The notes below the pieces were generated by a model, which did not search any database, was not told where the DNA came from, and saw nothing but the letters and a program-made list of their open reading frames with translations. A stretch of DNA of 64,000 bases from Channa argus (Eukaryota), in contig NC_090205.1 in NCBI RefSeq assembly GCF_033026475.1, positions 6,037,544-6,101,543 on the forward strand, written 5' to 3'. The number at the start of each line of letters is the position of its first letter. The stretch's first letter is position 1. Positions 1,925 through 58,797 of this stretch are shown one piece after another. The translations under genes were made by a program, and so were the position numbers.

Positions 1925-2345
1925 TACAAGACTGTATATTCAATTCAACTTTATTTCTATAGCACAGAATCATAAAAAAATAATCATAAGGCACTTTACA
2001 GAATAAAGTTGAGACTATAAAGATGTTTGATATGGCACCATAATTCACAGGGTTTGTCATAAAGGAAAGTTTGAGTTCTTAATGAAAGTAAATTTAGACT
2101 GAGAGAAACCCATTTTTGCACACAAATAAAATAAATGTAAGAAAATAATTTCATGTGTAATTCAACTAACTATATAGCATCAGATAATTAACATAAAACC
2201 ATAAGACAGTTTACAAAATAAAGTCAAGACTATAAAGATGTATAGAGGGAACCCAATAATTCCCCCTGGAACAAGTCTTAGGTAACAGTGGAGAGGACAA
2301 ACTCCCTTTAACAGAAGAAACCTCCAGCAGAACCAGGCTCAGGGT
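1925..2345 (-). mobile_element. Two partial copies of the 3' tail of an L2-type LINE / LINE-dependent SINE (reverse orientation)
   Basis: The reverse complement matches the tail that follows the L2 ORF at 26110-26385 (cctgagcctggttctgctggaggtttc...gggagtttttcctctccactgtt...ctttattctgtaaagtgcc...aattggcgctatataaataaagttgaattg). Another copy lies at 11282-11500. Confidence 0.6.
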
Positions 2346-3580
2346 GGACGACCATCTGCATCGACCGGTTGGGGTAAAAGTGAAGAGAGAAAAGAACAGA
2401 ACAACAAAAAGCAACAACAAAACATCGGGCAGGTTGGTAGGATCAGTAGCTGCACGCTGGAAGACACACAGCTTCAAAGCCAGGGACACCTGCAGGAAGG
2501 GACAGAGAGAGGGGGACAGAGAAGGACAAAGACAAACAGAGTTCATGACATACAGTGGTGACATAAATAGGTAGAAACTTTTTACTCCAAGGGGATTTTG
2601 TTTGTGTACTGCAGTTGCTGTTAAACATATAAATATATATACATACACAAAGTAATGATATTAATAAAATAAAATAAAAAAATACTAATAACACACTGTA
2701 CATTGTGCAATTTAATGAGGTGGACAGTCCTAAAAAGTGAGCGAGATGTTCCCGTGTTGTCTATTGAAAGTGCCTTCATGCATGTTGTTTACTGTGCATA
2801 TACAGAGACATTTGGATGTATGTTAGTTAAGAAATTATAATTTGATGAAATGGTGCAGGGGGAGAGGAGAGAAAGGAAGGTGCAATAGGCCTATAGCAGC
2901 ATAACCAAGTTAGTTCAGAGTCACTGAGCAACCTTAACTATTACCATTAAGTGCTTTATATTTAAGAAGCAGGGTTTTAAGTTCTGTTCTACATTTTATG
3001 GGAGAGAACTTAGTGAAGGTGATTTATGATCTCTCTTGCCAATTCCAGGCAAAACTCTTGCTGCAGCATTTTGGATTAATTGTAGTAAGTTCCCAACAAC
3101 TATACACACACTAGAGTAAGTTAGTTCATTTAATTTTACAACCTAATCTGTCAGATGGACAATGGAGGTGGAGTCTAGGAGTAAGTGATACCATGGAGTT
3201 CAGTTACGTTCAGCGGCCTGTCCTGGTATTACTTGCCATCAGATTGCAACTAAAGTCCTATCATGAAAGACAATTTATAAAGTGAATTAGTTCTTGGGCC
3301 CACAACCCTGTCAAAGAATTTCTCATTTTGCTATTCTGTTAACACTGAATTCATGGTACATAATCATTGTGGAAGCACAGCAGGGAATTGTAGCTGAAGT
3401 ATTACGACGTTATTTAGAAGTTAAAATCATCAATAAGTACGAGCTTAAAACTTGTTTAACACCGAAGGTGTTTGTGACAAAGTTTGATTTGGTAGATTAA
3501 AGTGTGGAGTTTCTTATGGAACCTTTGAATGAGAGCCAGTTTGTACTTAACATTGACTGTTTTTCAGGTTCTGGCTCAGA

Positions 3581-9500: not shown

Positions 9501-12500
9501 GGAGACATGACTGTGACATCCAACAGCCTCGATGTGCCTTTCAGTGTAAGAAATGAACACCTGTCACAACATCTGATCCTGAACACAAGTGTCTACCTGC
9601 ACAAAATTCACAATTTGAGTGACTGACATATCAAAAGGTAAAGTGGTTAAGTGACTGATGTTTAAATAATAGTACACATAGATCACAATGCTTATTTTTA
9701 AACAGAAAACATCCATTCATATGCATATGACAGACCACTGACAAGTACAATATGAGCCTGCTCTTCAAAAAAGACCAAGAAGAGACAAATATTAGACGAA
9801 ATAAAATCATTGACTGGGCAGCATGGTCGACTCCATCTGCCGGCTGCAGCCTTTCTGTGTGGAGTTTGCATGTTCTCCGCGTGCTTGTGTGGGTTTCCTC
9901 CCACAGTCCAAAGACATTCATGTAGGTAATTGGTGACTCTAAAATTGCCTGCCTGGTGTGAATGTGGGTGTGAATGGTTGTCTGTCTGTATATGTCTCTC
10001 TGTGTTGGCCCTGAGACAGACTGGTGGATTGGTCTCCAGTCCTGTTCAAGGTCACAGGGGGCTGGATTCTATCCCAGCTGTCCGAGGTGGATGCTGCCTC
10101 TCACCCTGTAACAGCTGGGATAGAATCCAGCCCCCTGTGACGTTGAACAGGATAAGTTGTTACAGATAATAGATGGATTGAATATCAGTCATTGAAAATT
10201 TTAGTAGTGGTGTGAGGAGAAGCTACTGCTGGAGTCTGGTTATGAGTGGTGTTAGCTAACATTTACTACAACTCACCTAATGCTGCACTCAAATCACAGA
10301 ATTGTAGCTTGTTTTCACAAACCACTATGTAGTAAAAACAACGTTGGTCTTCTGATACCGGCAGGAGTATTAATACTTGCACTTAGTGAAAACTAAAGCA
10401 CAAAGATCAGCATTATCTCACATTATTGAATATGAATTCACACTGTAGTTCTTGCTCCATATTTTATAACCTGTATTGTAATAAAATAATATTTGTGTGT
10501 GTTTCAGGGCTTCATGTTCCTGCAGGGGGACAATGTGGAAATCAGTTTGATAGAGGGATATTCAAATTCACATATGGATGAAACCGACATGATGGTTTAC
10601 TTTGGCATCTCTGAGTTCTTCTTCAACAGCATCGGCATGTTGCTGTATAGGTCAGGGCCCATTCTACTTGACGTTCCAAGGGTAAGACCAGCTGATGGGA
10701 CTTTAAAACCCCACAAAGTGCTGCAATGACATGACCCACCACAGGTCAGCAGTGGTCACACAACTTCATCATTTTTGTGTCATGTTTTTCATCTCTTTGT
10801 GATCATTTTCTTTTGTTTTTTTACTGAGCTCTTTCAAACAAGAAGTATGAACATGCCAGAAGCTCTGGCCTGTGGGCCAATGATAGAGCATGTTTTAAAA
10901 TTTGACACTACTGCAAATGTAATTGATAATATAAAATGACTGCATTGATAAAGCTTCTCTTCTTCTCATAGCAAACGTAACATCCTGGTCTTTAAATCAA
11001 CATGAATTGCTAGTGATTATGAAAATGTGTCATCTGTTAATCACTGATAGTATCACAGGTAGAGGTGAACATATCAGCAGAACATAAACTCCATACAGCA
11101 GATTAACAAATTTTGCACATTGCGCTTCCTCTCATCACTTTCTGTTCTCCTCAACAGATAGAAACATTTGGTGCAAATTTAATTCTGAAAAGTTTAGGAC
11201 TTCCTCAGGTAAGCAGAAATACTGTGAAAACTGATTCTGTTAGAAAGTGACCATCTTTATATTTGAGTTAGTCCCTCCAGAGTTTTCGTGATGTTGCAAA
11301 CATCCTGGTTCTGCTGGAGGTTTCTTCCGTTAAAGGGAGTTTTTCCTCTCCACTGTTGCCTATGGCTTGCTCCAGGGGGAATTGTTGGGTTCTCTTTATA
11401 TATCTTTATAATCTTGACTTTATTCTGTAAAGTGCCCTGAGATGACTTTGTTGTGAATTGGCGCTATATAAATAAAGTTGAATTGAATTGAGTTGAATTG
11501 AACAAATAATTCAAGCAACCCTCTGTAAATTCTGCTCAACCTTGCAATTTGAAACATCATAGAAACATTGCAACATGCATCACTAATTTAAAAAAAAAAA
11601 AAGCTGTTGCAAAATTAGACATGTTAGGCCACAACATTAAAATGAAAGGTCAGAGAAATACTTGAGGGACTGTTTAGTTTCTGTCGTCATTGTGTTAATC
11701 TCCTAATAATTTCAGCAAATGTAAAGGTTGTTGTTAAGATAATTTGACCCTTTGATTGATGTATCTTAAAAAGTATCATCAGTTCTCATTTACAACATTG
11801 TTATTGCCCATGTTCCTGCTGCTGATGCCTGTTTCTGTTACAACTAAAGGGCCCTGTTACTGTGACGCTTATTAAAGCTCCGCTTGTCACTATCAGCCCG
11901 AATGGACTCTCTGCTAATGCGTTAGCTATCGCTCAGTCTCATCAAGCAGGGACAGCACCTGTTGCTGTGGTAAGAACATATACACCCCCACATCTGATTG
12001 ATGTTTTCTGTCACGATTCTGTTAAAATTAGTGAGCTATGCGTCCACCGATGGAGTAGGTTATAGAGAAGTCCAGGTATGTTTGAAGCTGTGAGAGCTTC
12101 ACATTAACCACTGGACCACCACAGCTCTTCAATCTGTCTGGGAGACAGAGACAGAAAGAGTGGTTGAGTGGAGACTAAGTAAAGAGAGGGAGCAGTGTTA
12201 ATGACAACAAAGCAGTAAATGTGAGAACATTTTCTGAGAGTTTCAGTTTTATTATGTTCTAAAGCAAAAATAAACACACCACCTCTGCTCTGCTTATGTG
12301 TGTGCGTAGCCTGTGGTCAAACAGAGACACAGACCTGAACCTGGACTCATGTAGTTAATGTTCACAATGCAGATCACTGACACACACACTCTGCAGGATC
12401 TTAACACTGCTCCACCTGGGAGGGATGATTGACTGACTGTGTGACGCTAACGTTTTCCACACTTTCTGTTCACATGCAGTTGAGGGAAAAAAAATTTGCT

Positions 12501-23832: not shown

Positions 23833-26385
23833 TTGCGTATGATACTAGATACAGTTGCCCCTCTGAAAAAGAAGGCAGTGAATCAGAGGAGGCGACCTCC
23901 ATGGTACAATTCACAAATGCACAGCTTAAAGCAGGCGTCACGAAAATTAGAGAGGAAGTGGCGTTCCACTAATTTAGAAGAATCCCGGTTAGCCTGGAAA
24001 AACAGTTTAAAAGTGTACAAAAAAGCTCTCCGTGATGCCAGAACAGCATATTATTCCGCACTAATAGAGGAAAACAAGAACAACCCCCGGTTTCTGTTCA
24101 GCACTGTAGCCAGGCTGACTAAGAGCCATAGTTCTGTTGAGCCTAGTATACCCTTAACTTTGAGCAGCAATGACTTCATGACTTTCTTTACTGATAAAAT
24201 TGCAGCCATTAGGGAAAAGATTCACCAGATCCTCCCTACAAATATTACAGATAGATCTTCATGTACAACAGCTCTAGAATCCTCAATAAGGCCCCAATCC
24301 ATCTTAGACTGTTTTTCACCCATAGATCTCACTGAGCTAAGTTCAACTATCGCCTCCTCAAAACTAACAACATGTCTTTTAGACCCTGTTCCAACCAAAT
24401 TGCTTAAAGATGTTCTACCTTTAATAGACACATTCATATTAGATTTGATTAACTTATCTTTAGAAACTGGCTATGTACCAAAGGCTTATAAAGTTGCTGT
24501 AATCAAACCATTACTTAAAAAACCCTGTCTTGATCCAGGTGATTTAGCCAACTATAGACCAATATCAAATCTCCCGTTTATTTCTAAAATCCTGGAAAAA
24601 GTAGTTGCAAAACAATTATGTGATCACCTTTACAGGAATAATTTGTATGAAGACTTTCAGTCAGGATTTAGAGTTCATCACAGTACAGAAACAGCACTGG
24701 TAAAAGTCTCCAATGATCTTCTCCTCGCTTCAGATAATGGACTTGTGTCCGTACTCGTCTTACTAGACCTTAGTGCCGCATTTGACACCATTGACCACAA
24801 CATTTTATTACAGAGACTAGAACATAGATTTGGGATTAAAGGAACCACATTACATTGGTTTAAATCTTATCTGTCAGACAGATTCCAACTTGTTCATATT
24901 AATGATGACTCTTCTTTATGCACCAAAGTTAGCTATGGAGTTCCACAGGGCTCTGTGTTAGGACCAATACTTTTTAATCTGTACATGTCACCTTTAGGCA
25001 AAATTATTAGGAAACATTCCATAAACTTCCACTGCTATGCAGATGATACCCAGCTCTATTTATCTGTGAAACCAGAAGATACTAACCAATTAGTCAAACT
25101 TGAAGCATGTCTAAAAGACATAAAGACCTGGATGTCCTACAATTTCCTACTTCTAAATTCAGACAAAACTGAAATCATCCTCTTTGGGCCTAAAAACATG
25201 AGAAATATGCTGTCTAACAATATAGTTACTTTAGATGACATAACTTTGGCCTCCAGTACTGCGGTGAGGAACCTTGGAGTTATTTTTGACCAGGATTTGG
25301 CATTTACGTCACATATAAGACAAATCTCTAGAACAGCCTTCTTCCACCTACGGAACATTGCTAAAATTAGAAGCATCCTGTCTCAAAGTGATGCCGAAAA
25401 ACTGGTCCATGCATTTGTTACTTCTAGGTTGGACTACTGTAATTCCCTACTTCTGGGGTGTCCTAATAACTCTCTAAAAAGCCTTCAATTAATCCAAAAT
25501 GCTGCAGCAAGAGTGCTGACTGGATTAGGAAAGAGAGATCATATTTCACCTTCACTAGCTTCTCTTCATTGGCTTCCCATAAAATCTAGAATAGAGTTCA
25601 AAACCCTCCTCCTTACATACAAAGCTCTTAATGGTCAAGCTCCATCATATTTAAAAGATCTCATAGTTCTGTATCGCCCGATTAGACCACTTCGATCCCA
25701 AAATACAGGCCTACTTGTGGTTCCCAGAGTTTGCAAAAGTAGAATGGGAGGCAGAGCCTTTAGCTATCAAGCTCCTCTCCTGTGGAACCAGCTTCCAATC
25801 CAAATTCGGGGAGCAGACACCCTCTCTACTTTTAAGACTAGGCTTAAAACCTTCCTTTTTGATAAAGCTTATAGTTAAACTGCTCACTCAACCTGAACTA
25901 GCTTTTCTCTATACATTTACTTGTCACTACTGTATACCATTAATTCTATATCCTACAACCTGCACGATGCTTTGTTGTTGCTTTTTTGTTGTTTTGTTGT
26001 TGCTTTTCTTGTTGTTTTGTTGTTGCTTTTTGTTGTTGCTTTTTGTTGTTTTGTTGTTGCTTTTTTGTTGTTTTGTTGTTGCTTTTCGTTGTTGCTTTTC
26101 GTTGCTCTTTTCTTTTCTTTCTCCACTTTCCACTCACCCCAACCGGTCAAGGCAGATGGCCACCCACCCTGAGCCTGGTTCTGCTGGAGGTTTCTCCCAT
26201 TAAAGGGAGTTTTTCCTCTCCACTGTTGCCTAGGGCTTGCTCAAGGGGGATTTGTTGGGTTGCTTCTACATACTTGTGTAGTCTGGACTTTATTCTGTAA
26301 AGTGCCTTGAGATGACTTTGTTGTAAATTGGCGCTATATAAATAAAGTTGAATTGAATTGAATTGAATTGAATTGAACAACAACC
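23833..26385 (+). mobile_element. L2-clade non-LTR retrotransposon, 5'-truncated (RT domain ORF 23833-25878 plus 3' tail with microsatellites)
   Basis: A 681-aa ORF carries the RT motifs FDTIDHNILLQRLE, GVPQGSVLGPILFNLYM and YADDTQLY, and the L2-type C-terminus LQLIQNAAARVLTGLGKRDHISPSLASLHWLPIKSRIEFKTLLLTYKALNG. The tail carries a (TTGTTG/TTTTG)n tract at 25958-26110, and the conserved 3' tail ends in (TTGAA)n at 26345-26385. The paralogous empty site at 56100-56160 defines the boundaries. Confidence 0.85.
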
Positions 26386-26774
26386 TTTATTGTCATTGAG
26401 AACATATATGTATTACACATCCATAAATGTCTTTAAATTTGTACTATGACATGTAAACAGCAACAACTGCTGTAGTAACTTATTTGATAATCTGTTTAGA
26501 CCTGTATATATAGTTGAAGTTTAAACATTTATATACACATTAAAAAGCAATTTTAAAAGTCGGATTTTTAATACAAATAATATAAACTTTTTCTAGTTAA
26601 TGTTTAATTTTTACAATAATATAAAAACTAAATGTTAAACTCTTTAAATTGGTTGATATATTAATATAATAATAATAAAACTGAAATAACAAAACACATA
26701 TTAGGTGTAAACAAAAATATAACACAATTCAAAGAAAGATAATAAAAATTTAACTTGGATAAAAACAGACCTAT

Positions 26775-27050
26775 GGTGGACAAGGAGACCGATGAGTCCA
26801 GTCAACAGGAAAACACTCAGCAGCCCCAGACAGAGACCAACTCTTTAAAACCCCTCTCTGAGCTCCTGGGACCTAAGCAGAGAAAACAATCCACTTAATC
26901 CAGTCCTCTATCAGAAATAACAGATGAAAGAACAGATTTATTCCCACTCAGTCTGTCAGCGTCTGATTGAACATTCTTACCTGTCTGATTTGTTGAAGGT
27001 CTTGAGTTAAGAGCCTTCTCTTATTCAACATTGACATACATTTTGTCCAT
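26775..27050 (-). pseudogene. CLR gene B remnant (cytoplasmic exon with premature stop + TM exon only)
   Basis: Exon 1 reads ATG GAC AAA ATG TAT GTC AAT GTT GAA TAA (MDKMYVNVE*). The TM exon at 26775-26875 carries a 2-nt deletion relative to gene A. No neck or CTLD exons follow on the 3' side, where the L2 insertion lies. Confidence 0.6.
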
Positions 27051-28744
27051 GATCATAAATTTGTCAGGTCAGTAAGTGCAAATGATAAAGACTTGTTGGT
27101 TTCAGATGCTAAGAACACAGGGTTTAAAATGACAGGTTTTTGTTGTTTTAATGTTGGACAATACAAACCATCATCATTAGAAGACACGGCAAACTACACT
27201 AATAGAGGACTGAAGCACATAGTTCAGTCTCTTCACACTTCTGACATTTACTGTAATAAAGTGACATCAGTTCAGGACACGGTTGTGGAAATGAATAGAA
27301 AACACAGTCCCATTTATTCTACCCAACCTGATGCAGCTTTGTAATTTCCTTCTTAGTTCCTGGAAAGAACAGTGGCACAAAGGTTTCACAGTTTAGAATA
27401 AATGTACAGAAGTTGAGGGGCCGGGGTGGGTTGGGCTGTTAAGACAACACAGCTACAAAAATAAACACAGTGCACTGTGACTGTTGACTGTACAACTGTG
27501 TTGTAAATATAAATCCTGCACTTGAGATATTGTGACTTCCTGTCTCTGCTATGTGTCTCTTAAATTAAATTCCTCTTAATCCTTGAACATTTGTCTTCCT
27601 CCACTTTTACAATGGAAGTTTGACCCACTATTGTTACCTGCTAAATATTTTTATGATATATTAGAAGTGTCGCAGTTATATAAGAAAGATTCTCTATAAC
27701 CTTCATCCACCACCAGAAGCCCTGAGAGCGGGCATGTGAGCATCAGAACTGGACCACAGAGCGATGGATAAAGGGGGCCTGGTCTGGTTGTTTGCATGTG
27801 CATCACTTACTCAGGAAAAGATGCTACCAGGATGCACTATGGCAGAAAGGGAAGCTGGCAAAAACAGTGTGATGCTCCTGACAATGTTCTGGAGGGAAAC
27901 CTTACGTTCTGCCATTCTTGCAGATGTTACTTTGACAAGGTACCACCTACATAAATGCTGTTGCTGAGCTGAAGTACACGGAAACCGTATTTCCTAATGT
28001 CTGTGGTCTCTTTTAGTGGTCTCTGCCACACTGCAAAAAAAGGTTCAACAATGGTTTGAAGAAAACACTGAGTTTGAGGTATTGACTTTGCCTCCAAATT
28101 CTATAAATCTCAATGCAGTCATCGGTGTGTGAGTGGGTGAATGAGAAGCAACATTGTAAAGTGTTTTGGAAAAAAGTGTTGTATAAGTTGCCATTTATCA
28201 TTTATCCTCAGGCTCTGATATAGAGATAAAGATATGTCATTACACCACGTTATTACCAAATTAAACAGTTTATGAAATGGTGCAGCTCCCACCATCTCAT
28301 GGTCACAAACCATAGTAAAGTTAGGGTTATACTGGTAATATTTTGTTTTTGTATTTATGATTTGCAGTGTTACGTTTTGTCTTGTTTTACCATGTATAAA
28401 TATCAGCCTCATTCAAATGAGTGAGTGAGAGCAGTGAGGTACAAGACCCACAGTACACAAAGAATCCCAGAAAACACTGCTGCAAACACAGTTTTCCATA
28501 TGAACCTGTCAATGTAGGCAAATGCTTGTGTTTGTACACTAATGGCGTCCAAAGGCCAGAGATGACATAGTCAGATTCTCTGTGCATGGTAACATTAATA
28601 CCACTTAGTGGACAGGAGTCAGCCCTGATAGACGGGTATCGAACCACACGGGTCATCAGAGCTGGCAGCGTATGTGGTTGTACATGCTGAACCCCCGTCC
28701 ATCACAACATTGAGCAGTTGCATCTAATGTTGTGATGTGTTACA

Positions 28745-29329: not shown

Positions 29330-29546
29330 GGGGGCGACTGTAGCTCAGTTGGTAAAGGCAGTCGTCGATTCGCGGACCTGGCTATATGTTGAAGTGTCCC
29401 TGGGCAAGACACTGAACCCCTAACAGCCCATTCCCCTCCCCAGCTGTGCAGTGCCGGTCCAACCCGGTAGAAATTGCGGACAATGATCCGCTGTGGCAAC
29501 ACTGAACTCACGGAATAAGCCGAAAGGAGAGTAGTAGTAGTAGGAA
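29330..29546 (+). mobile_element. SINE (tRNA-like head GGGGGCGACTGTAGCTCAGTTGG..., RTE-type LINE 3' tail ...CCGCTGTGGCAAC...AGCCGAAAGGAG) with 14-bp target-site duplication
   Basis: The TSD aaagagtcataact is present at 29317-29329 and again at 29547-29560. Paralogous flank copies at 36060-36090 and 47455-47480 lack the insertion. Confidence 0.7.
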
Positions 29547-42057: not shown

Positions 42058-45000
42058 TTACACATTTTTCTCACAGATCCATCGCTGAGATACTTCACAG
42101 TACCGGTCATTCCACTTGTGACCTTTTAGAACTTTAAGTTCTGCACAGTCCTCTCCGGTAAATGAATAACATTTGTTATCACTAGGTTCTCCCTCATCCC
42201 AGTTCCTAAGAGGTGAATGAACAAAACAAAAAAACAATCGGGAAATTGTGAATATCTGACATAAAAAGACTCTTGATGGTCTCTATGTTGATAACTTATT
42301 AAATGTTATGACAGCAGTGGTGCAGTCAGAGCCAACAGTATTGAAACAGACAGGAAGTGTGTCAGCAGTCATTCTAGCAGCTCTGAGAGTCTCCAGTCAG
42401 TGGTGTTCAGAGCCAAATGCTAACTTGAGCTTTTATGTCTTATTTCATCTTTTTTAATCTAATTAATTCTCGTTTGTCTCTTTTCTTTGCAATGGTTTAG
42501 TTCGTTGCTTTTGTTTCTGTGATTTAGGATTTTGGTCTTTTGTTTTGACAAAACACACATTAAATCTAAATACATCTGGAAATAAACAAAGTGAAGTATA
42601 TTACTGTCTTTCTTAAAAGTCAGTGTAGTTCCATCGATCCATCTCCAGGTCCCCTCTTCATCACTGTCACTCAAACCAATCCAAGTTCCCATTGTGGTGA
42701 ATGCAGAGAGAAATGTCTGTTCAATTGAAACAAAAGACAATCGCTGCAATTATATTTTAGTTGTAACCAGCAGGAGTGAGACACAAAGACACAGCACACA
42801 CACATTCATATCCACAAAAAAAGCTGAAACACTTCCATTCATGATACAGTGGATTCAGAAAGCAGTCACATGCTCATATTTCTTCCTCATGTCCATATTA
42901 TCCACATTTATTATAATAGTGGCATAACTGTTAGATTGGCCTGCAACATCAACAATGTATAAAAATATAAAGTACAGATTCATTTAATTATGATTGAAGC
43001 TTATTTTAGATCTGAAATTAGCAGAAGAAACTATTAAAGCATCATCTGAATTGCAGAAAGCATTTTTTTTGCAAAACTATCACTTTACATGTTGTCACTT
43101 TAATAAAAGATATGTAAAAATCCCTGATCATGTTCATCATTCTTTAATGCAACCGCAAGGGGGCACAAGCCAGTGTCTTCTTGTGCCAGTCCCAAGTCTG
43201 GATAAATGCAGATTGTTGTGGCAGGTAGGGCATCCGACGTAAAACACATGCCAAATCAAACATGCGAATCGTGACAAAGACTTCCATACCGGATCGGTCG
43301 GGGCCCGGGTTAACAACGACCGCCACCGGTGCTGTTGACCTACAGGGTACCGGTGGAAATTGGACTACTGTTGGTCGAAGACGAAGAAGAAGAGGAGGAA
43401 GGTGTGTTCGTAGGCAGAGAGAGAATGTAGGACTGACAGTAGGGACTTTGAATGTTGGTACTATGACAGGGAAGGCTAGGGAGTTGATCGACATGATGCA
43501 GAGAAGGAAGGTGGACATACTGTGTGTCCAGGAGACCAGGTGGAAAGGTAGCAAGGCTAGAAGCTTAGGAGCAGGGTTCAAGTTGTTTTACCATGGGTCA
43601 GATAGGAAGAGAAATGGAGTAGGAGTTATATTGAAAGAGGATTTTGTGAGGAATGTTCTAGAGGTGAAAAGAGTATCAGACAGGTTGATGAGTCTGAAGC
43701 TGGAAGTTGAAGGGGTGATGTTCAATGTTGTGAGTGGTTATGCCCCACAGGTAGGATGTGAGTTAGAAGAGAAGGAGAAATTCTGGAGTGAGTTAGATGA
43801 AGTGATGCAGAGCATCCACAGAGGTGAGAGAGTTGTCATTGGTGCAGATTTCAATGGGCATGTAGGTGAAGGGAACAGAGGTGATGAGAATGTGATGGGC
43901 AGGTTTGGTGTTCAGGACAGGACTGCAGAAGGTCAGATGGTGGTTGACTTTGCAAAGAGGATGGAAATGGCTGTAGTAAACACTTTCTTTCAGAAGAGGC
44001 AGGAACATAGGGTGACGTACAAGAGCAGGGTAGAAGCACTCAGGTAGACTACATCTTGTGTAGACGTTGTAATCTGAAAAAGATCAGTGACTGTAAAGCA
44101 TTGGTAGGGGAGAGTGTAGCCAGACAACACAGGATGGTGGTGTGTAAAATGATGCTGGTGGTGAGGAAGATAAGGAGGACTAAGGCAGAGCAGAGGACGA
44201 AGTGGTGGAAGTTGAAAAAGGAAGAATGTCGTTTAGTTTTCAGGGAGGAGCTGAGACAGACTCTGGGTGGTTTGGAGGTGCTTCCAGATGACTGGACTAC
44301 TACAGCTAATTTGATCAGGGAGACAGGTAGGAGGGAACTCGGTGTGTCATCTGGAAAGAGGAAAGCGGACAAGGAGACTTGGTGGTGGAACGAGGAAGTT
44401 CAGGAGTGTATACAGAGAAAGAGGTTAGCTAAGAAGAAGTGGGACACTGAGAGGACTGAAGAGAGTAGACAGGAGCACAGGGAGATGCAGCGTAAGGTGA
44501 AGATAGAGGTGGCAAAGGCCAAACAAAGAGAATATGAGGACTTGTATGCTAGGTTGGACAGTAAAGAGGGAGAGGTGGATTTGTACAGGTTGGCCAGACA
44601 AAGAGACAGAGATGGAAAGGATGTGCAGCAGGTTAGTGTGATTAAAGATAAGGATGGAAATGTATTGACAGGTGCCAGGAGTGTGATGGGAAGATGAAAG
44701 GAGAACTTTGAAGAGTTGATGAACGAGGAAAATGAAAGGGAACGAAGAGTAGAAGAGGTGACTGGTGTGGAGCAGGAAGTAGCAAAGATTAGTAAGAGTG
44801 AAGTGAGGAGGACATTGAAGAGGATGAAGAGCGGAAAGGCAGTTGGTCCTGATGACATACCTGTGGAGGTATGGAAGTGTCTAGGAGAGGTGGCAGTAGA
44901 GTTTTTGACTAGTTTGTTTAACAAGATCTTGGAGAGTGAGAGGATGCCAGAGGACTGGAGGAAAAGTGTACTGGTACCAATTTTTAAGAACAAGGGAGAT

Positions 45001-46639
45001 GTGCAGAGCTGTGGCAACTACAGAGGAATAAAGCTGACGAGTCACACAATGAAGTTGTGAGAAAGAGTAGTGGAAGCTCGGCTAAGGGCAGAGGTGAACA
45101 TTTGTGAGCAGCAATATGGTTTCATGCCTAGAAAGACTACAACAGATGCAGTATTTGCTTTGAGGACGCTGATGGAGAAGTACAGAGAGGGTCATAGGGA
45201 GTTGCATTGTGTCTTCGTAGATTTAGAAAAAGCGTATGACAGGGTGCCGAGAGAGGAGCTGTGGTATTGTATGAGGACGTCTGGAGTGGCAGAGAAGTAT
45301 GTTAGAGTGGTGCAGGACATGTATGAGTGGAGGTGGAGGAAAATCTAGAGAGGTGGAGGTCTGCTCTGGAAAATAGAGGAATGAAGCTTAGCCGCAGTAA
45401 GACAGAATACATGTGTGTGAATGACAAGGACCCAGGTGGAATGGTGAGGTTACAGGGAGCAGAGGTGAAGAAGGTGCAGGACTTTAAGTCAACGGTTCAG
45501 AGCAACGGTGAGTGTGGAAAAGAGGTGAAGAGGCGAGTGCACGCAGGTTGGAACGGGTGGAGAAAAGTGTCAGGTGTGTTGTGTGATAAAAGAGTATCAG
45601 CAAGAATGAAAGGAAAGATGTTCAAGACAGTGGTGAGACCAGAGATGTTGTTCAGCTTAGAGACAGTGGAACTGAAGAAAAGACAGGAGTCAGAGCTGGA
45701 GGTAGCAGAGCTTAAAATGTTGAGGTTCTCTTTGGGAGTGACGAGGATGGACAGGATCAGGAATGAGTACATCAGAGGGACAGCTCATGTTAGATGTGTT
45801 GGAGATAAAGTCAGAGAGGCCAGATTGAGGTGGTTTGGACATGTTCAGAGGAGAAACTGTGAATATATCGGTAGAAGGATGCTGAGGTTGGAGCTGCCAG
45901 GCAGGAGGTCTAGAGGAAGACCAAAGAGGAGATTTATGGATGTAGTGAGGGAGGACATGAAGTTAGTTGGTGTGAGTGAAGAGGATGCAGAGGATAGAGT
46001 TAGATGGAGGCACATGATTCGCTGTGGCGACTCCTGAAAGGGAGCAGCCGAAAGGAAAAGAAGAAGAAGTTCATCATTCTTTGTTTGGACACACTGCACC
46101 TGTTCTTCAGCACTGTTAATGACCACCAGGTCTGCTCCTCTCTTTCTGCAGTCCTCTCTGCCTTTTGTCCATGAACCAGACTCAGTGGACAGGAGATAAC
46201 AGGAGTAGATGAACATCATCCATCCTGCAGGACAAGTTTTCTCTGCAACGTAAAACAATAGATATTAGAAATGTATCAAGACACAACTCCATCTACTGCC
46301 AGAGAAAGATGGTATGAAGTAAAACATGCAAACAGAGGAGTTTTAAGTGTCTTCACATCTTAACATTTTAATGTGCTCACAGAATGTGAACGTGTCCTTA
46401 ATCTTAAACATATAGTGAACAGTTCACAAGTCTAAACCCTTGACAAGATCAAATGTCCTGTCCCTCACTGCCCACACTCACTCACTCTGACACTTGTTCA
46501 GTTCCTCTGCTGTTTTATTGAGTCTGGCTTTCAGCTGGTCTCTCTCTTCAGTCAGTGAAGACACTTTGTTCTTACTGTCCTGGAGAAGCTCAGTCAGGTT
46601 GGTTTTGATGCTGGAGAGTTCTGTTGCTGAGTTATAATC
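42058..46639 (-). pseudogene. CLR gene D: CTLD3 (EPS variant), CTLD2, [RTE LINE in intron], CTLD1, neck; cytoplasmic and TM exons deleted
   Basis: - CTLD3, about 42230-42058: NWDEGEPSDNKCYSFTGEDCAELKVLKGHKWNDRYCEVSQRWICEKNV*.
- CTLD2, about 42738-42620: IEQTFLSAFTTMGTWIGLSDSDEEGTWRWIDGTTLTF.
- CTLD1, about 46230-46080: TCPAGWMMFIYSCYLLSTESGSWTKGREDCRKRGADLVVINSAEEQ.
- Neck, about 46639-46470, with a 12-nt in-frame deletion relative to gene A.
Upstream, the neck-TM intron is joined directly to the 5' flanking block at about 46985, so no TM exon or exon 1 remains. Confidence 0.6.
43146..46068 (+). mobile_element. RTE-type non-LTR retrotransposon (APE endonuclease + RT), near full length, ORF disrupted by several stops/frameshifts, flanked by 14-bp TSD
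   Basis: ORF 43262-44047 is the APE domain (LNVGTMTGKARELIDMMQRRKVDILCVQETRWKG...VVIGADFNGHVGEG). The RT region (44716-46037) carries [32 protein letters not shown] and [14 protein letters not shown], and ends ...HMIRCGDS*. The TSD gttcatcattcttt is present at 43132-43145 and 46069-46082. Confidence 0.85.
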
Positions 46640-53585: not shown

Positions 53586-54380
53586 GTGATGAAAGCTACA
53601 GATGCTGTGGACTCTGAGGTCTCGATTACATCTGGGGCACTGCTCTGGAGTGGTCATACTTGGCAGAGAGAACATTTTGCGTACAAATCAGTCCTCTTCT
53701 GCTGCTCTTTTGTATGGGGTTCTGCAGGGCTCAATTCTTGGGCCTCTGCTTTTTTCCCTCTATCTGCTCCCCCTTGGCTCCATTCTTAGAAAGCACAATT
53801 GTCCTTCCTTATGCAGAAGACACCCAGATATATTCGCCACTGATACAGAAGGATGGCTACTCCATACACTCACTGAATAAGTGTCTTAAGGATTTAAGAG
53901 CCTGTATGGCTCGTGACTTCCTCCATTTTAATGAAAAAAAGATCCAAAGACCAGCAGTGGGTCCTCCCTTGTAGACCTGCGCACTGTGACACAATTTGTT
54001 AAACATAATGTCACAAATTTGGGTGTTAAGGTGGACAGTGGTTTTACCTTGGACGGGCAGGTTAGTTCAGTGGTGAAATCCAGCTTCTTTCACTTAAGAC
54101 AACTTGGCTGGATTACTGTAATTCTCTTTATTTTGGTGTCTCTCACTTGTCCCTGTCCTGTCTTCAGCTGGTACAAAATGCAGCTGCACGTTTATTAACG
54201 GGAACAGGGAAGAGACAACACATCACCCCGGTTTTAGCCTCACCGCACTGGCTGCCTGTCCATCCTAGAGTTAATTTTAAAGTTCTTGTGTTTGTGTTTC
54301 AATCCTCAAATGGTCGTGCCCCACCCTATATGTGCACCCCCACTTCCAGGTCACTCAGGTCAGCTGACCCAGTATGAGTA
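53586..54380 (+). mobile_element. L2-clade LINE fragment (RT C-terminal part, internally deleted), followed by AT-rich microsatellite
   Basis: It reads ...[30 protein letters not shown]...AEDTQIY...LQLVQNAAARLLTGTGKRQHITPVLASPHWLPVHPRVNFKVLVFVFQSSNGRAPPYM. It belongs to the same family as the element at 23833-26385. Confidence 0.8.
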
Positions 54381-56299
54381 GTTTATTATACTATTTCATT
54401 GTATTTTGTTCCTTAAATTCTTTTATACTTTTTATTTTTTATTTATATATATAATTTGGTTTTACTATTTTAATTGTTAAGCACTTCAGTCAGACTTTGC
54501 TGCTTTTAAAGTGCTTTATAAATAAAGTTGGCTCGACTGTGAGCAACATGCCAATTTTGACCCTGTTTCACTTTTTATTCTCTCTTTTGTATATACATTA
54601 CTCCTTCCATTGCTGTTTTAGGTTTGGTGATGATTATTAAACTTTAACTAATTTTCTAAACGTGGGACACCCCAGATATAATTGTAATGTTTTAATCTCG
54701 GGAATGCGCACACTAGAATATTCATTTAAGAAAAACAACACAAACTTTGACATTATGCTCAGCATCAACTAACTCAGCTAATGTCAGCTCGTGCTGTTTT
54801 GCTCTGAGAAACAAGATATTATCCTTTAGTGGGGCCCAGCTTTAGATGGTTGCCCCTCGCCTTTTCTCTTTACTCTTTTACTCCCTGTATAAATAAAAGT
54901 ATGTCTCAGTTTTGTTGACACACATAAACCAGGATATTGGGATGTAAACAAAGTGAAGGACTTACTTCAAAGTCGGTGGAGGTTCATCCATTTTCAGGTG
55001 CCCTCTTCATCTGTATCACTCAAACCAATCCATGCATCATCTGCAGTGAATCAAGAGAGTAATGTTTGTTTTGTATATGTATATAACTTTGTTTGTATAT
55101 GTCAAACTGTCTCTGAGCAAGACGCTGAACCCCCAACAGCTCATTCCCCTCCCCAGATGTGCAGTGCCAGTCCAAGCCGGGTAGAGACTGCGGAGGGTTT
55201 CTTCAGGAAGGGCATCTGGCGTAAAAACTGTGACTAATCAACATGTGGACAAAGTTTTCTCTGTAACATATTGTAAGACAGCAGACATAAGTAAAGACAG
55301 AGCTCCATCTCCTGCAGATGTGCTTGAGTGTTGAGAGTTAAAGACCAGTATCTTAAAATGTTAACATCAACATATCAACATGCACACAGAATGTCTCCAA
55401 AGCAGCCAGTCTTTGGAAACATTAGGTTTGCACACACACAAGCTTTTTTCGCCAGGCATCTATGATGCATCTTGTTCCATTTATGCTTCAGCCCACACTC
55501 ACTTTTTTGGGACAAACTCTGAAGCCTGTTCAGTTTTTCAGTTGTTTAAATGAGGCGGATGTTCAGTTGGTCTCTCTCCTCAGTCAGAGAAGACAGTCTG
55601 TCATTCAGCTTGTCCTTCTCCTCAGTCCGTGAAGAAACTTTATTCTTACAGTCTTGCAGAAGGTCAGTCAGGTTTGCTTTGATGGTGGAGAGTTTTTCAG
55701 CTGCACCATGTGCTGCTTTATGGTCTAAAAAAAGAGACATGTCTGTGAAACATAAAATACCACATGAATTCATGTACTGTGATGTTACTAAGAGAAGTCA
55801 AATTGTTTCCTACAATATTTTTTTTCAATGAACTGACCATAATTTAGGTTTAGGAATTAAATATCTTTATCACATTTTATTTTTACACCTACATTCATTC
55901 CTCATGAGGATGTTGATTATTCTTAGTAAAAGTCAGCTCTTCAACACAAGGACACTGAAAGTTCTCATTGGCATCTCTAAATTTTAACATCTAGGTTTCT
56001 GAGGTTCAAAATAGTTCATCTGTAGACATCTGTCACCTCCCTTAAGATAGAAGTGCAACCTGACACAGGATGTTTCTCATGTTCTAATTTGCAACAAATG
56101 ACAGTTTAACATTTTCTTATTCAGATTAGGAAGAAAAAAAAAGAACAACCACCTTTATTGTCATTGAGCACATATATGTATATATATGCACATCCATAAA
56201 TGTTTATGTTTGTACAATGACACGTAAACAGCAACAACTGCTGTAGTGACTTATGTGATAATCTGTGTTTACACCTGTATATATAGTGAAGTTTATACA

Positions 56300-56450
56300 T
56301 TTATATATGGTCCAAGCCCGGTAGAAATTGGGGAGGGTTGCATCAGGAAGGGCATCCGGCATAAAAACTGTGCCAAGTCAACATGCGGACAATGATCCGC
56401 TGTGGTGACCCTGAACTCACGGGATAAGCCGAAAGGACAAAAAACAAACA
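56300..56450 (+). mobile_element. Short RTE-LINE 3'-end fragment (5'-truncated copy / SINE-like) inserted in copy F only
   Basis: It reads ...gggcatccggcataaaaactgtgccaagtcaacatgcggacaatgatccgctgtggtgaccctgaactcacgggataagccgaaaggac, which corresponds to the C-terminal codons ...HMIRCGD plus the tail of the RTE at 43146-46068. It is absent from the paralogous site at about 26540. Confidence 0.65.
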
Positions 56451-56999
56451 AAAAAAACACTTTAATAAGCAATTTTAAAGTTGGATTTTTAATACAAATA
56501 ATATAAACATTTTATAGTTAATGTTTAGTTTTTACAATAATTTAAAAACTAAATGTTAAACTCTTTACATTGGTCCATATATTACTATAATAATAAAACT
56601 GAAATAACAAAACACATTAGGTGCAAACAAAAATAACACACAATTCAAAGAAAGATAATAAAAATTTAACTTGGATAAAAACAGACTCATGGTGGACAAG
56701 GAGACCGATGAGTCCAGTCAACAGGAAAACACTCAGCAGCCCCAGACAGAGACCAACTCTATAAAACCCCTCTCTGAGCTCCTGGGACCTAAGCAGAGAA
56801 AACAATCCACTTAATCCAGTCCTCTATCAGAAATAACAGATGAAAGAGCAGATTTATTCCCACTGAGTCTGTCAGCGTCTGATTGAACATTCTTACCTGT
56901 CTGATTTGTTGAAGGTCTTGAGTGAACAGACTTGTCATGTTCAACATTGACATATATTTTGTCCATGATCATAAATTTGTCAGGTCAGTAAGTGCAAAT

Positions 57000-57960
57000 G
57001 ATAAAGACTTGTTGGTTTCAGATGCTAAGAACACAGGGTTTAAAGTGACAGGTTTTTGTGGTTTTAATGTTGGACAATACAAACCATCATTAGAAGACAC
57101 GGCAAACTACACTAATAGAAGACTGAAGCACATAGTTCAGTCTCTTCACACTTCTGACATTTACTGTAGTAAAATGACATCAGTTCAGGACACGGTTGTG
57201 GAAATGAATAGAAAACACAGTCCCATTTATTCTACCCAACCTGATGCAGCTTTGTAATTTCCTTCTTAGTTCCTGGAAAGAACAGTGGCACAAAGGTTTC
57301 ACAGTTTAGAATAAATGTACAGAAGTTGAGGGGCCGGGGTGGGTTGGGCTGTTAAGACAACACAGCTACAAAAATAAAACAGACTTTGACTGTGTGTATG
57401 TGTTGTAAATATAAATCCTGCACTTGAGGTATTGTGACTTCCTGTCTCTGCTGTGTGTCTCTTAAATTAAATTCCTCTTAATCCTTGAACATTTGTCTTC
57501 CTCCACTTTTACAATGGAAGTTTGACCCACTATTGTTACTTGTTGCTAAATATTTTTCTGATATATTAGAAGTGTCGCTGTTATAAAATTAAGATTCTCT
57601 ATAACCTTCATCCACCGCCAGAAGCCCTGAGAGCGGGCATGTGAGCATCAGAACTGGACCACAGAGTGATGGATAAAGGGGGCCTGGTCTGATCAATCAC
57701 GCTTTCTTTTACATCATGTGGATGGTTGGTTGCATGTGCATCACTTACTCAGGAAAAGATGCTACCAGGATGCACTATGGCAGAAAGGGAAGCTGGCAGA
57801 AGCAGTGTGATGCTCCTGACAATGTTCTGGAGGGAAACCTTACGTTCTGCCATTCTTGGAGATGTTACTTTAACAAGGTACCACCTACAGAAACACTGTT
57901 GCTGAGCTGAAGTACACGGAAACCGTATTTCCTAATGTCTGTGGTCTCTTTTAGTGGTCT
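57000..57960. repeat. Segmental duplicate of 27060-28030 (upstream flank of CLR genes B/F)
   Basis: The two copies are near-identical, including ORF 56922-57257 matching ORF 27093-27344. The blocks are gaagtgtcgc(a/t)gttata...ccttcatccaccaccagaagccctgagagcgggcatgtgagcatcagaactggaccacagag. Confidence 0.8.
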
Positions 57961-58797
57961 CTGCCACACTGCTGTAGCCCGTCTACTCTCCTTTAGGTGT
58001 ATGAGGGGCCCTGAGTTCTTTACTTAGCTCTAAACTCAGTTTTGATTACTTGAATATTTTTTATGGTCTTGAATTTCACCTGTAAAAGCAGATTATTACT
58101 AACTTCAAATACACTAGTTTACTCACCCTTTAAGAAATCTTTTTAGAACTGGGATATCTATCGAAATTATTGAAGCAATAACATCACAAAACAGTTCTAG
58201 TTTAAACTTAAATCCCTATTTAATTGAAAAGTAAAAATAAAAAGATATATGAATATATATAATAACTTAAAATGTTTACATTCCTTATTCCTAAATAATA
58301 TATATTCTTAAATATATGGCACAGTATCAGAACAAAAAATACATTTACCCTTCAGGGCTGTTTAACCTGACTCACAGATGTTTTAACTGTCCTTTTATCA
58401 AAAACTCAATCAATTAATAAAACCAAAAAATAGTTGCAGGCCTGAGTCGGTGCTGGGGGGCGTTGTGACCAAAAACTCAGTGGCCGCTTCTCTCCAACAA
58501 GAGCAACAAACAAACTAAAATGTGATACCTTTTTCACAGGTGAGCGATATGTCCAACCAATCCTGCGACTCCCTCTGTCACTGTCTCCGAGTCAGACGTC
58601 TGTAGAGCTGTAGAGCCTGTCCAAAGGTGTCTCTGTTCCCCGAATCAGCAACAGTTCAACACGACACGTGTAGCTGGGTTAGCTTGGTTAGCTAGCTGCC
58701 TCCCTCGGTTGACGCTGTTACTACTCCTCATCGGATTGATGAGTAGGTCCTCTCCTGATAAACACTTCGTATTTCTCGCTGAAATACTTAGTCCATC

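What the first reader, a model, noticed from the sequence alone, without database searches (positions are those of the whole stretch)
23833..26385. Filled vs empty paralogous site dates an L2 LINE insertion after the segmental duplication
Flank 23690-23832 plus 26386-26540 is collinear with 56030-56300 in the gene F copy. There the sequence reads straight through (...cagattaggaagaa aaaaaaagaacaacc acctttattgtcattgag...) without the 2.55-kb L2 element. Conversely, the F copy carries a 150-bp RTE-tail fragment (56300-56450) that is absent from the B copy (about 26540). Reciprocal presence and absence gives a relative chronology: unit duplication first, then independent TE insertions. The L2 copy still has a 681-aa uninterrupted RT ORF, so the family may have been active recently.
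Basis: seen in the sequence. Interest (0 to 1): 0.5.

Follow-up and report, generated by a model that had tools for sequence, protein, structure and literature searches.

The report
L2 retrotransposon inserted after local duplication
One of two duplicated pieces of a snakehead-fish lectin gene carries a 2.5-kb truncated L2 retrotransposon that the other piece lacks, so the element jumped in after the duplication; this is a correct but routine observation.

Summary
Window 23723-28034 (copy B) and 56028-57972 (copy F) are paralogous: 1745 aligned sites, 95.5% identity, K2P 0.047. B alone carries a 2547-bp insert at 23831-26377. F alone carries a 150-bp insert at 56307-56456.

The B insert is a 5'-truncated L2-clade LINE. 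Its 681-codon ORF is intact and holds the RT domain. It aligns to residues 304-980 of a 980-aa full-length relative, so the endonuclease domain is missing. It ends in a stem-loop plus a perfect (TTGAA)6. Its last 41 nt match the tail of the zebrafish L2 element ZfL2-1 at 39 positions.

Insertion after the duplication is supported in two ways. The B-only segment ends exactly at the family's canonical 3' terminus. Simulated neutral decay at the B-F rate would leave the ORF intact with probability about 0.002.

The window is Channa argus. A second assembly has the same L2 at the same site, with 3 SNPs and an intact ORF, so the insertion is not brand new.

Corrections: "gene B" is a truncated CD209-like lectin pseudogene fragment, and the "RTE tail" joins an RTE head to an RTE tail.

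This is ordinary TE chronology.

The parts
23723..23830 (.). Left flank of the L2 site in copy B, and left end of the B/F paralogous block. It is intron sequence of the lectin gene fragment.
   Evidence: 93.5% identical over 108 bp to F 56028-56135, E 2e-40. No homology further left.
23831..26377 (+). 5'-truncated L2-clade LINE insert of ZfL2-1 type, present only in B. The last 3 nt ('gaa') could belong to tail or target.
   Evidence: Absent from F. Also present at the same site in a second C. argus assembly.
23833..25878 (+). Intact 681-codon remnant of L2 ORF2, holding the linker/tail-binding region, the RT domain and the C-terminal domain. The endonuclease domain is missing.
   Evidence: ORF listing. 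RVT_1 at residues 238-484, E 1.9e-38. 79% identity to residues 304-980 of the 980-aa Anabas ORF2 P0001, ending at the same C-terminus KAYS.
23899..23961 (+). Conserved tail-binding-region motif PW-x8-K-x3-R-x2-E-x2-W (PWYNSQMHSLKQASRKLERKW).
   Evidence: Same spacing as P324/W325/R334/R338/E341/W344 of ZfL2-2, which the paper calls conserved in the L2 clade (PMC4176376). Sequence read.
25971..26114 (+). T/G-rich minisatellite inside the L2 3'UTR.
   Evidence: TRF: period 56, 2.4 copies, 94% matches.
26290..26345 (+). 3'-tail stem-loop of the L2.
   Evidence: MFE -17.4 kcal/mol for 26290-26377, z -3.6. The architecture matches the folds of the ZfL2-1 tail, the L001 tail and the copy at 11420-11502.
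26348..26377 (+). Perfect (TTGAA)x6 terminal microsatellite of the L2.
   Evidence: TRF: 6.0 copies, 100% matches. Same repeat unit as the ZfL2-1 tail.
26375..28034 (.). Right flank of the L2 site and remainder of the B block. It holds the TM exon (about 26772-26844, minus strand) and the cytoplasmic exon (about 26898-27052, minus strand) of the lectin pseudogene.
   Evidence: Matches F 56143-57972. Exon identification by paralogous ORF clustering.
27021..27023 (-). Premature TAA in B's cytoplasmic exon. B reads MIMDKMYVNVE* where F reads MIMDKIYVNVEHDK.
   Evidence: ORF boundary and the alignment.
56028..56135 (.). F-copy counterpart of the left flank.
56136..56142 (.). Seven A at the empty site in F that have no counterpart in B. 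Either a short target-site truncation at L2 integration or later A-run slippage.
56143..57972 (.). F-copy counterpart of the right flank, interrupted by the F-only insert.
56307..56456 (+). F-only 150-bp insert. It is a non-autonomous RTE-derived retroposon: part of the RTE 5' head joined to the last codons and 3' tail, ending in an A-rich run.
   Evidence: Absent from B at 26534/26535. Insert positions 7-94 align to 43191-43285 and positions 78-143 to 46003-46065 of the RTE-type LINE at 43148-46072. Related copies lie at 55170-55252 and 29475-29528.

Best explanation
A roughly 1.9-kb piece of a type II C-type lectin (CD209-like) gene was duplicated within a tandem lectin array on a Channa argus chromosome. 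The piece holds the 5' exons for the cytoplasmic tail and the transmembrane segment plus the adjoining intron. The duplication gave copies B and F.

After the two copies stopped exchanging sequence, an L2-clade LINE of the ZfL2-1 type integrated into the intron remnant of B by target-primed reverse transcription. The inferred steps are as follows. The bottom strand was nicked next to 5'-...GTTGTTC-3'. The exposed TTC could pair with the GAA of the RNA's (UUGAA)n tail. Reverse transcription stopped or was joined early, which removed about 305 codons of ORF2 (the endonuclease domain) and everything upstream. The 5' end was joined with at most 3 bp of duplication and probably a 7-bp loss of an A-run.

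The copy was therefore dead on arrival. It lies antisense to the lectin fragment. Its ORF is still intact only because it is young.

Independently, a 150-bp non-autonomous RTE derivative inserted in F 165 bp to the right of the homologous position.

Shown: the paralogy, the reciprocal presence and absence, the element's identity and truncation, and its youth relative to B-F divergence. Inferred: the TPRT details and the 7-bp target truncation.
For: Paralogy across both junctions:
- Flank matches have E 2e-40 and 3e-51.
- The block has 1745 aligned sites, 79 mismatches, K2P 0.047 and 11 small indels.

The B-only segment is a bona fide L2:
- RVT_1 domain.
- 79% identity to the C-terminal 677 residues of a 980-aa EN+RT ORF2.
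- About 7900 fish homologues, many with Exo_endo_phos plus RVT_1.
- Full-length relatives L001 and L002 carry an ORF1 with Lipase_GDSL_2 followed by an EN+RT ORF2.
- The terminal 41 nt match the ZfL2-1 tail at 39 positions, with the same (TGAAT)n repeat, and the tail folds into the same stem-loop.

The 3' boundary coincides with the family terminus seen in the independent copy at 11304-11502 and in L001.

Youth:
- Decay was simulated with the substitution and indel spectrum measured on B-F.
- The probability that the ORF stays intact is 0.002 at d = 0.0234 (half of B-F), 0.07 at d = 0.01 and 0.27 at d = 0.005.
- The (TTGAA)6 tail is perfect.

Reality of the filled site: an independent C. argus assembly (GCA_004786185.1) is collinear with window 10784-31762 at 99.87% and includes the L2.

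Junction features match published L2 behaviour (PMC4245944). Most ZfL2-1 inserts are 5'-truncated (31 of 33). L2-clade TSDs peak at 3-5 bp. Short target-site truncations are a recognised class.
Against: - There is no outgroup copy of this intron in the window, so polarity rests on mechanism and on ORF intactness, not on a third sequence.
- The left flank is only 108 bp long.
- The empty site is not an exact excision footprint (7 extra A).
- The F site could not be checked in a second assembly.
- Identity varies along the block, from 93% to 98% in 150-site bins. This could reflect exon constraint or gene conversion. In the second case 'duplication' should read 'last homogenisation'.
- No near-identical L2 copies were available to measure this copy's divergence from its source directly.
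Confidence: 0.93

Rival explanations
1. The L2 was already in the ancestral unit and was later deleted from F. On this reading the presence/absence says nothing about insertion time.
For: The empty site is not perfectly clean: F has 7 A that B lacks. No outgroup is available in the window.
Against: A deletion would have to remove 2547 bp ending exactly at the element's truncated 5' end and at its canonical (TTGAA)n terminus, leaving no L2 base behind. An ancestral L2 would have decayed for the whole B-F divergence time, and the probability of an intact 681-codon ORF is then about 0.002.
Confidence: 0.02
2. The order is right only relative to the last gene conversion between B and F, not to the duplication itself. 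The copies could be older and have been homogenised, with the L2 inserted after the last exchange covering this site.
For: Identity along the block is uneven, at 93% near the L2 site and 98% across 26726-26875 and 27026-27328. The locus is a tandem array of many related lectin units, where conversion is common.
Against: The high-identity stretch overlaps exons and putative promoter-proximal sequence, so constraint in F, or simple stochastic variation over 150-bp bins, explains it equally well. B is a pseudogene with a nonsense codon, and indels are scattered through the block. Either way the L2 postdates the B-F common ancestor of the flanking sequence.
Confidence: 0.12
3. Assembly artefact: either the F site is a collapse that lost an L2, or the L2 in B is a mis-join.
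For: The locus is repeat-rich and the F site was seen in one assembly only.
Against: The filled B site, with its flanks, is reproduced base for base in a second assembly from a different haplotype: 19 substitutions and one 8-bp indel over 21 kb, with 3 SNPs inside the L2. F differs from B at 79 substitutions and 11 small indels, so it is a distinct paralogue and not a misplaced B. A collapse would not excise an element exactly at its termini.
Confidence: 0.02

Closest known systems
ZfL2-1, a retrotransposition-competent L2-clade LINE of zebrafish (AB211149; PMC4176376)
   Same: - The 3' tail has the same architecture: a stem-loop, then GCGCTATA(T/C)AAATAAAG(T/C), then (TGAAT)n. 39 of the last 41 nt are identical.
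- The PW...E..W tail-binding motif lies between EN and RT.
- Full-length relatives have ORF1 plus ORF2 and are about 5 kb long, as ZfL2-1 is.
- This is the stringent type, ending in a short repeat tail and not poly(A).
   Different: - The host is a percomorph.
- The apical loop sequence differs.
- This copy lacks ORF1, the EN domain and the 5'UTR, so it cannot move.
- ORF2 identity to ZfL2-1 itself was not measured because no reference protein was available.
Percomorph L2 ORF2 proteins (e.g. Anabas testudineus P0001; elements L001 and L002)
   Same: 72-80% protein identity over the whole remnant, and the same C-terminus. L001 has the same GGCGCTATATAAATAAA-TTGAA tail.
   Different: These come from other species. 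No hit of 90% or more was found, so the C. argus subfamily itself is not represented in the protein collection.
Filled-site versus empty-site comparison of paralogues for relative dating of TE insertions and duplications (a standard comparative-genomics practice; my own knowledge)
   Same: The logic and the result are exactly of this kind.
   Different: Nothing conceptually different. Here ORF-survival odds add an independent age bound.
RTE-clade LINEs of fish and their short non-autonomous derivatives
   Same: The F insert shares its 3' end, including the ...IRCGDP* codons and the GCCGAAAGGA tail, with the LINE at 43148-46072 in the window. That LINE carries an endonuclease domain and has a 13-bp TSD. 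RTE TSDs peak at 10-12 bp (PMC4245944).
   Different: The insert also contains part of the LINE's 5' head, so it is an internally deleted element. It shows no detectable TSD. RTE clade membership was not tested by phylogeny.

Membership tests
L2 clade of non-LTR retrotransposons (ZfL2-1 type) | Reverse transcriptase domain of the non-LTR type in ORF2 | tested here: met
   RVT_1 at residues 238-484, E 1.9e-38.
L2 clade of non-LTR retrotransposons (ZfL2-1 type) | N-terminal APE-type endonuclease in ORF2 | tested here: inconclusive
   Absent from this copy because of 5' truncation: the alignment starts at residue 304 of 980. Present in full-length relatives as Exo_endo_phos.
L2 clade of non-LTR retrotransposons (ZfL2-1 type) | Stringent-type 3' tail: a conserved stem-loop followed by a short tandem repeat and no poly(A) | tested here: met
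   Perfect (TTGAA)6. Stem-loop with z -3.6. 39 of 41 terminal nt identical to the ZfL2-1 tail printed in the PMC4176376 supplement.
L2 clade of non-LTR retrotransposons (ZfL2-1 type) | Conserved tail-binding region (cTBR) between EN and RT, with the P, W, basic residues, E and W spaced as in ZfL2-2 residues 324-344 | tested here: met
   PWYNSQMHSLKQASRKLERKW has K at +10, R at +14, E at +17 and W at +20 from the P (one search compared). From my own knowledge, similar motifs occur in neighbouring clades, so this is supportive and not diagnostic.
L2 clade of non-LTR retrotransposons (ZfL2-1 type) | RT-domain phylogeny grouping with L2 references and not with CR1, Rex1 or RTE | not tested
   No curated reference RT set was available. 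The only check was that the ORF shares no blastp similarity at E 1e-5 with the RTE-type LINE in the window.
L2 clade of non-LTR retrotransposons (ZfL2-1 type) | Short TSD (peak 3-5 bp) and frequent 5' truncation | tested here: inconclusive
   The 5' truncation is met. The TSD is at most 3 bp ('gaa') and cannot be told apart from the tail. The site shows a 7-bp deficit instead. Reference values come from PMC4245944.
Segmental (intrachromosomal) duplication | Two non-allelic copies of at least 1 kb with at least 90% identity (conventional definition; my own knowledge) | tested here: met
   1745 aligned sites at 95.5% identity, in direct orientation and 32.3 kb apart. The unit is small and lies inside a tandem lectin array.
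RTE-clade LINE derivative (the F-only insert) | Shares its 3' terminus with an autonomous RTE element | tested here: met
   Insert positions 78-143 align to 46003-46065, the 3' end of the LINE at 43148-46072. That LINE has an Exo_endo_phos domain.
RTE-clade LINE derivative (the F-only insert) | The autonomous partner belongs to the RTE clade by RT phylogeny | not tested
   Only indirect evidence: a 13-bp TSD against the published RTE peak of 10-12 bp, and a C-terminal ...IRCGD motif recalled from memory.

The most novel reading that the evidence does not exclude
This L2 subfamily is still retrotransposing in Channa argus. That would make it one of the few currently active vertebrate L2 lineages. 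Separately, the B fragment with its L2-bearing intron may serve as an alternative 5' exon for the neighbouring lectin gene A, as one annotated model (P0121) suggests.
Probability: 0.25. Interest if true: 0.3.

Novelty: already known. Interest (0 to 1): 0.12.

Why it matters
It gives a clean local timeline for a fast-evolving immune lectin (CD209-like) array in the northern snakehead. The shared sequence is oldest, the 1.9-kb duplication came next, and L2 and RTE-derived insertions and pseudogenisation followed. The timeline shows that a ZfL2-1-type L2 subfamily was mobile within roughly the last 1% of neutral divergence in this lineage. That is useful for TE annotation and as a possible presence/absence marker, but it changes no concept.

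Tried and rejected
- A global MAFFT alignment of 23600-27100 against 55900-57050 misplaced the short left flank. It was replaced by BLAST and by an alignment with the L2 excised.
- Rfam found nothing in the 3'UTR or tail; the best match was a chance snoRNA hit at E 0.45.
- A full-text search for the tail string found no paper.
- An exact-protein look-up of the L2 ORF, and of an ORF spanning the empty F site, found no record.
- Attempts to fetch the F locus from the second C. argus assembly failed. P0121 and P0171 are not on record, and P0217 lies about 300 kb away. The third protein search returned no annotated E or F gene from that assembly.
- Channa striata lectins are only about 57-67% identical to the window's genes, so they are too distant for intron-level orthology. 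This outgroup was not pursued.
- No near-identical L2 copy exists in the window or in L004, so family-level divergence could not be measured.
- A Tc1-like appearance of 27700-28130 and 57600-57972 was not confirmed by Pfam.
- No TSD could be defined for the F insert. The apparent repeat ACATTTATAT/ACAC(A/T)TTAA is already present in the empty B site.

Full report
**1. Observation**

A self-BLAST of the window shows that copy B and copy F are paralogous on both sides of the reported element.
- B 23723-23830 matches F 56028-56135 at 93.5% over 108 bp, E 2e-40.
- B 26375-26535 matches F 56143-56307 at 87.5%, E 3e-51.
- B 26535-28034 matches F 56457-57972 at 93.0% over 1536 columns.

With the element excised, the block aligns over 1745 sites. 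There are 79 mismatches (95.5% identity, K2P 0.047), 11 small indels and two TE-sized indels. Homology stops at 23723/56028 on the left and at 28034/57972 on the right.

The B-only segment is 23831-26374, or to 26377 because the final 'gaa' could belong to tail or target. F reads straight through, except that it has seven A (56136-56142) with no counterpart in B. The F-only segment is 56307-56456 (150 bp), and B is empty at 26534/26535. The left flank begins at 23723, not 23690.

**2. What the B insert is**

The ORF 23833-25878 has 681 codons and no stop. It carries RVT_1 at residues 238-484 (E 1.9e-38). It aligns at 79% identity with residues 304-980 of a 980-aa Anabas testudineus protein, and both end in KAYS.

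That protein and most of about 7900 fish homologues also carry an N-terminal Exo_endo_phos endonuclease. The window copy is therefore 5'-truncated by about 305 codons plus everything upstream. Two full-length relatives have an upstream ORF1 with a Lipase_GDSL_2 domain followed by the EN+RT ORF2.

The 3'UTR (25879-26377) contains three features:
- a T/G-rich minisatellite;
- a stem-loop, with MFE -17.4 kcal/mol and z -3.6;
- a perfect (TTGAA)6 tail.

The supplement of PMC4176376 prints the 3' tail of the zebrafish L2-clade element ZfL2-1. The last 41 nt of the window element match it at 39 positions, including the same pentanucleotide repeat. The predicted folds have the same architecture. The motif PWYNSQMHSLKQASRKLERKW has the spacing of the tail-binding region that the same paper reports as conserved in the L2 clade.

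An independent copy at 11304-11502 and the relative L001 end at the same terminus. I therefore accept the L2 assignment, ZfL2-1 type.

**3. Polarity and age**

No third copy of this intron exists in the window, so polarity rests on two arguments.

First, the B-only segment runs from a truncated internal point of ORF2 exactly to the family's canonical 3' end. That is what target-primed reverse transcription produces and what a random deletion would not.

Second, a 5'-truncated copy cannot be under selection for its ORF. I simulated neutral decay of the ORF with the substitution spectrum, indel-to-substitution ratio and indel lengths measured on the B-F alignment. The ORF stays open with these probabilities:

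| Divergence d | P(ORF intact) |
|---|---|
| 0.0234 (B's share of the B-F divergence) | 0.002 |
| 0.01 | 0.07 |
| 0.005 | 0.27 |

The insert is therefore clearly younger than the B-F split. This estimate is conservative, because the B-F block includes exons that lower the measured rate.

**4. Junction anatomy (inferred)**

- The empty site reads AGGAAGAA-AAAAAAA-GAACAAC.
- The filled site reads AGGAAGAA-[L2...(TTGAA)n]-(GAA)CAAC.
- The bottom-strand primer ...GTTGTTC-3' can pair with the GAA of the RNA tail.
- There is at most a 3-bp duplication and a 7-bp deficit in an A-run. This means a short target-site truncation or later slippage.
- Published de novo ZfL2-1 insertions are nearly all 5'-truncated (31 of 33). 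L2-clade TSDs peak at 3-5 bp, and short truncations are a recognised class (PMC4245944).
- Comparison with L001 and L002 places the first recognisable L2 bases at 23831 plus or minus 2.

**5. The F insert**

Its 3' half aligns with the last codons (...IRCGD) and tail of a LINE at 43148-46072 in the same window. That LINE has an endonuclease domain and a 13-bp TSD.

Its 5' half aligns with that LINE's 5'UTR and first codons. Related short copies lie at 55170-55252 and 29475-29528.

It is therefore an internally deleted, non-autonomous RTE-type derivative, further truncated at its 5' end, and not simply a tail. No TSD is detectable.

**6. Context**

The window is a tandem array of type II C-type lectin genes on the minus strand. 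Cytoplasmic, transmembrane, neck and three CTLD exons recur in it.

The best protein hits are Channa argus 'CD209 antigen-like protein C', at 98% identity. Locus L003 from C. argus assembly GCA_004786185.1 (CM015721.1:5947373-5968343) is collinear with window 10784-31762 at 99.87%.

Copy B holds only the cytoplasmic and TM exons. It has a premature TAA (MIMDKMYVNVE*) and ends in the intron 108 bp left of the L2. It is a truncated pseudogene fragment lying between gene A (20.7-23.3 kb) and the next unit. F continues into a neck exon at 55549-55797.

A-type units are 85-91% identical to one another, while A and E differ by about 25%. The B-F duplication is therefore a separate, small and relatively recent event.

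**7. Second assembly**

L003 contains the L2 at the same position. It differs from the window by 19 substitutions and one 8-bp indel over 21 kb. Three of the substitutions lie inside the L2. Two are synonymous and one is I/V, and the ORF is intact in both alleles.

The filled site is therefore real. The insertion also predates the coalescence of two haplotypes that differ by about 0.1%, so it is not a brand-new event. I could not retrieve the F site from that assembly.

**8. Verdict**

The main caveat is that 'after the duplication' strictly means 'after the last B-F sequence exchange'. 'Recently active' is reasonable, bounded below by haplotype coalescence and above by roughly 1% divergence, but it needs genome-wide copies to test.

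This is a textbook use of filled and empty paralogous sites, and the element is a member of a well-characterised LINE lineage. Interest is low.

Noticed in passing
window 26772-26801 (-) and about 22717 (-): The annotated C. argus protein P0121 ('CD209 antigen-like protein C, partial') begins with LDSSVSLSTI. That peptide is encoded by B's TM exon in a shifted frame and is then spliced to gene A's TM exon. The implied intron (about 22718-26771) contains the whole L2, so B may act as an upstream alternative exon for gene A.
   Followed up: partly
window 43148-46072 (+): An RTE-type LINE with an endonuclease Pfam hit and a broken RT region. It is flanked by a 13-bp TSD (ttcatcattcttt) and splits a lectin gene (unit D) between its CTLD exons. 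The A-like sequence resumes at 46076.
   Followed up: partly
window 23343-23642 (+): A 99-aa ORF with an RT-like motif (LLFIDFNSAFDTIRPY) and no Pfam hit. It sits in the 450-bp stretch between the end of the gene A unit (23269) and the start of the B block (23723), so it lies at the rearrangement junction.
   Followed up: no
window 27700-28130 and 57600-57972 (+): Both copies share a stretch that looks like a Tc1-type transposase remnant (…SVMLL..FWRETL…). B has a 33-bp deletion within it and continues in the same vein beyond 28034, whereas F diverges at 57972. If real, this TE predates the duplication. Pfam did not confirm it.
   Followed up: partly
window 53593-54374 (+), 2937-3085 (-), 2159-2422 (-), 11304-11502 (+): Older, decayed L2-related fragments, at 26-58% amino-acid or 79-90% nucleotide identity to the B copy. 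One lies inside the F gene. They indicate several earlier waves of L2 activity.
   Followed up: partly
window 59809-63742 (-) and 14806-16033 (-): ORFs that read like the RT, RNase H and integrase of LTR (Gypsy-like) retrotransposons, identified only from the look of the translated ORFs. The first set is long and mostly open.
   Followed up: no
window 29380-29540 and 55100-55260: Longer copies of the SINE-like RTE derivative extend further 5' (…CTGGGCAAGACACTGAACCCC…) than the F insert. The copy at 29 kb lacks the internal head segment between two short direct repeats (…TTGCGGA/…ATGCGGA), which suggests a family of deletion derivatives.
   Followed up: partly
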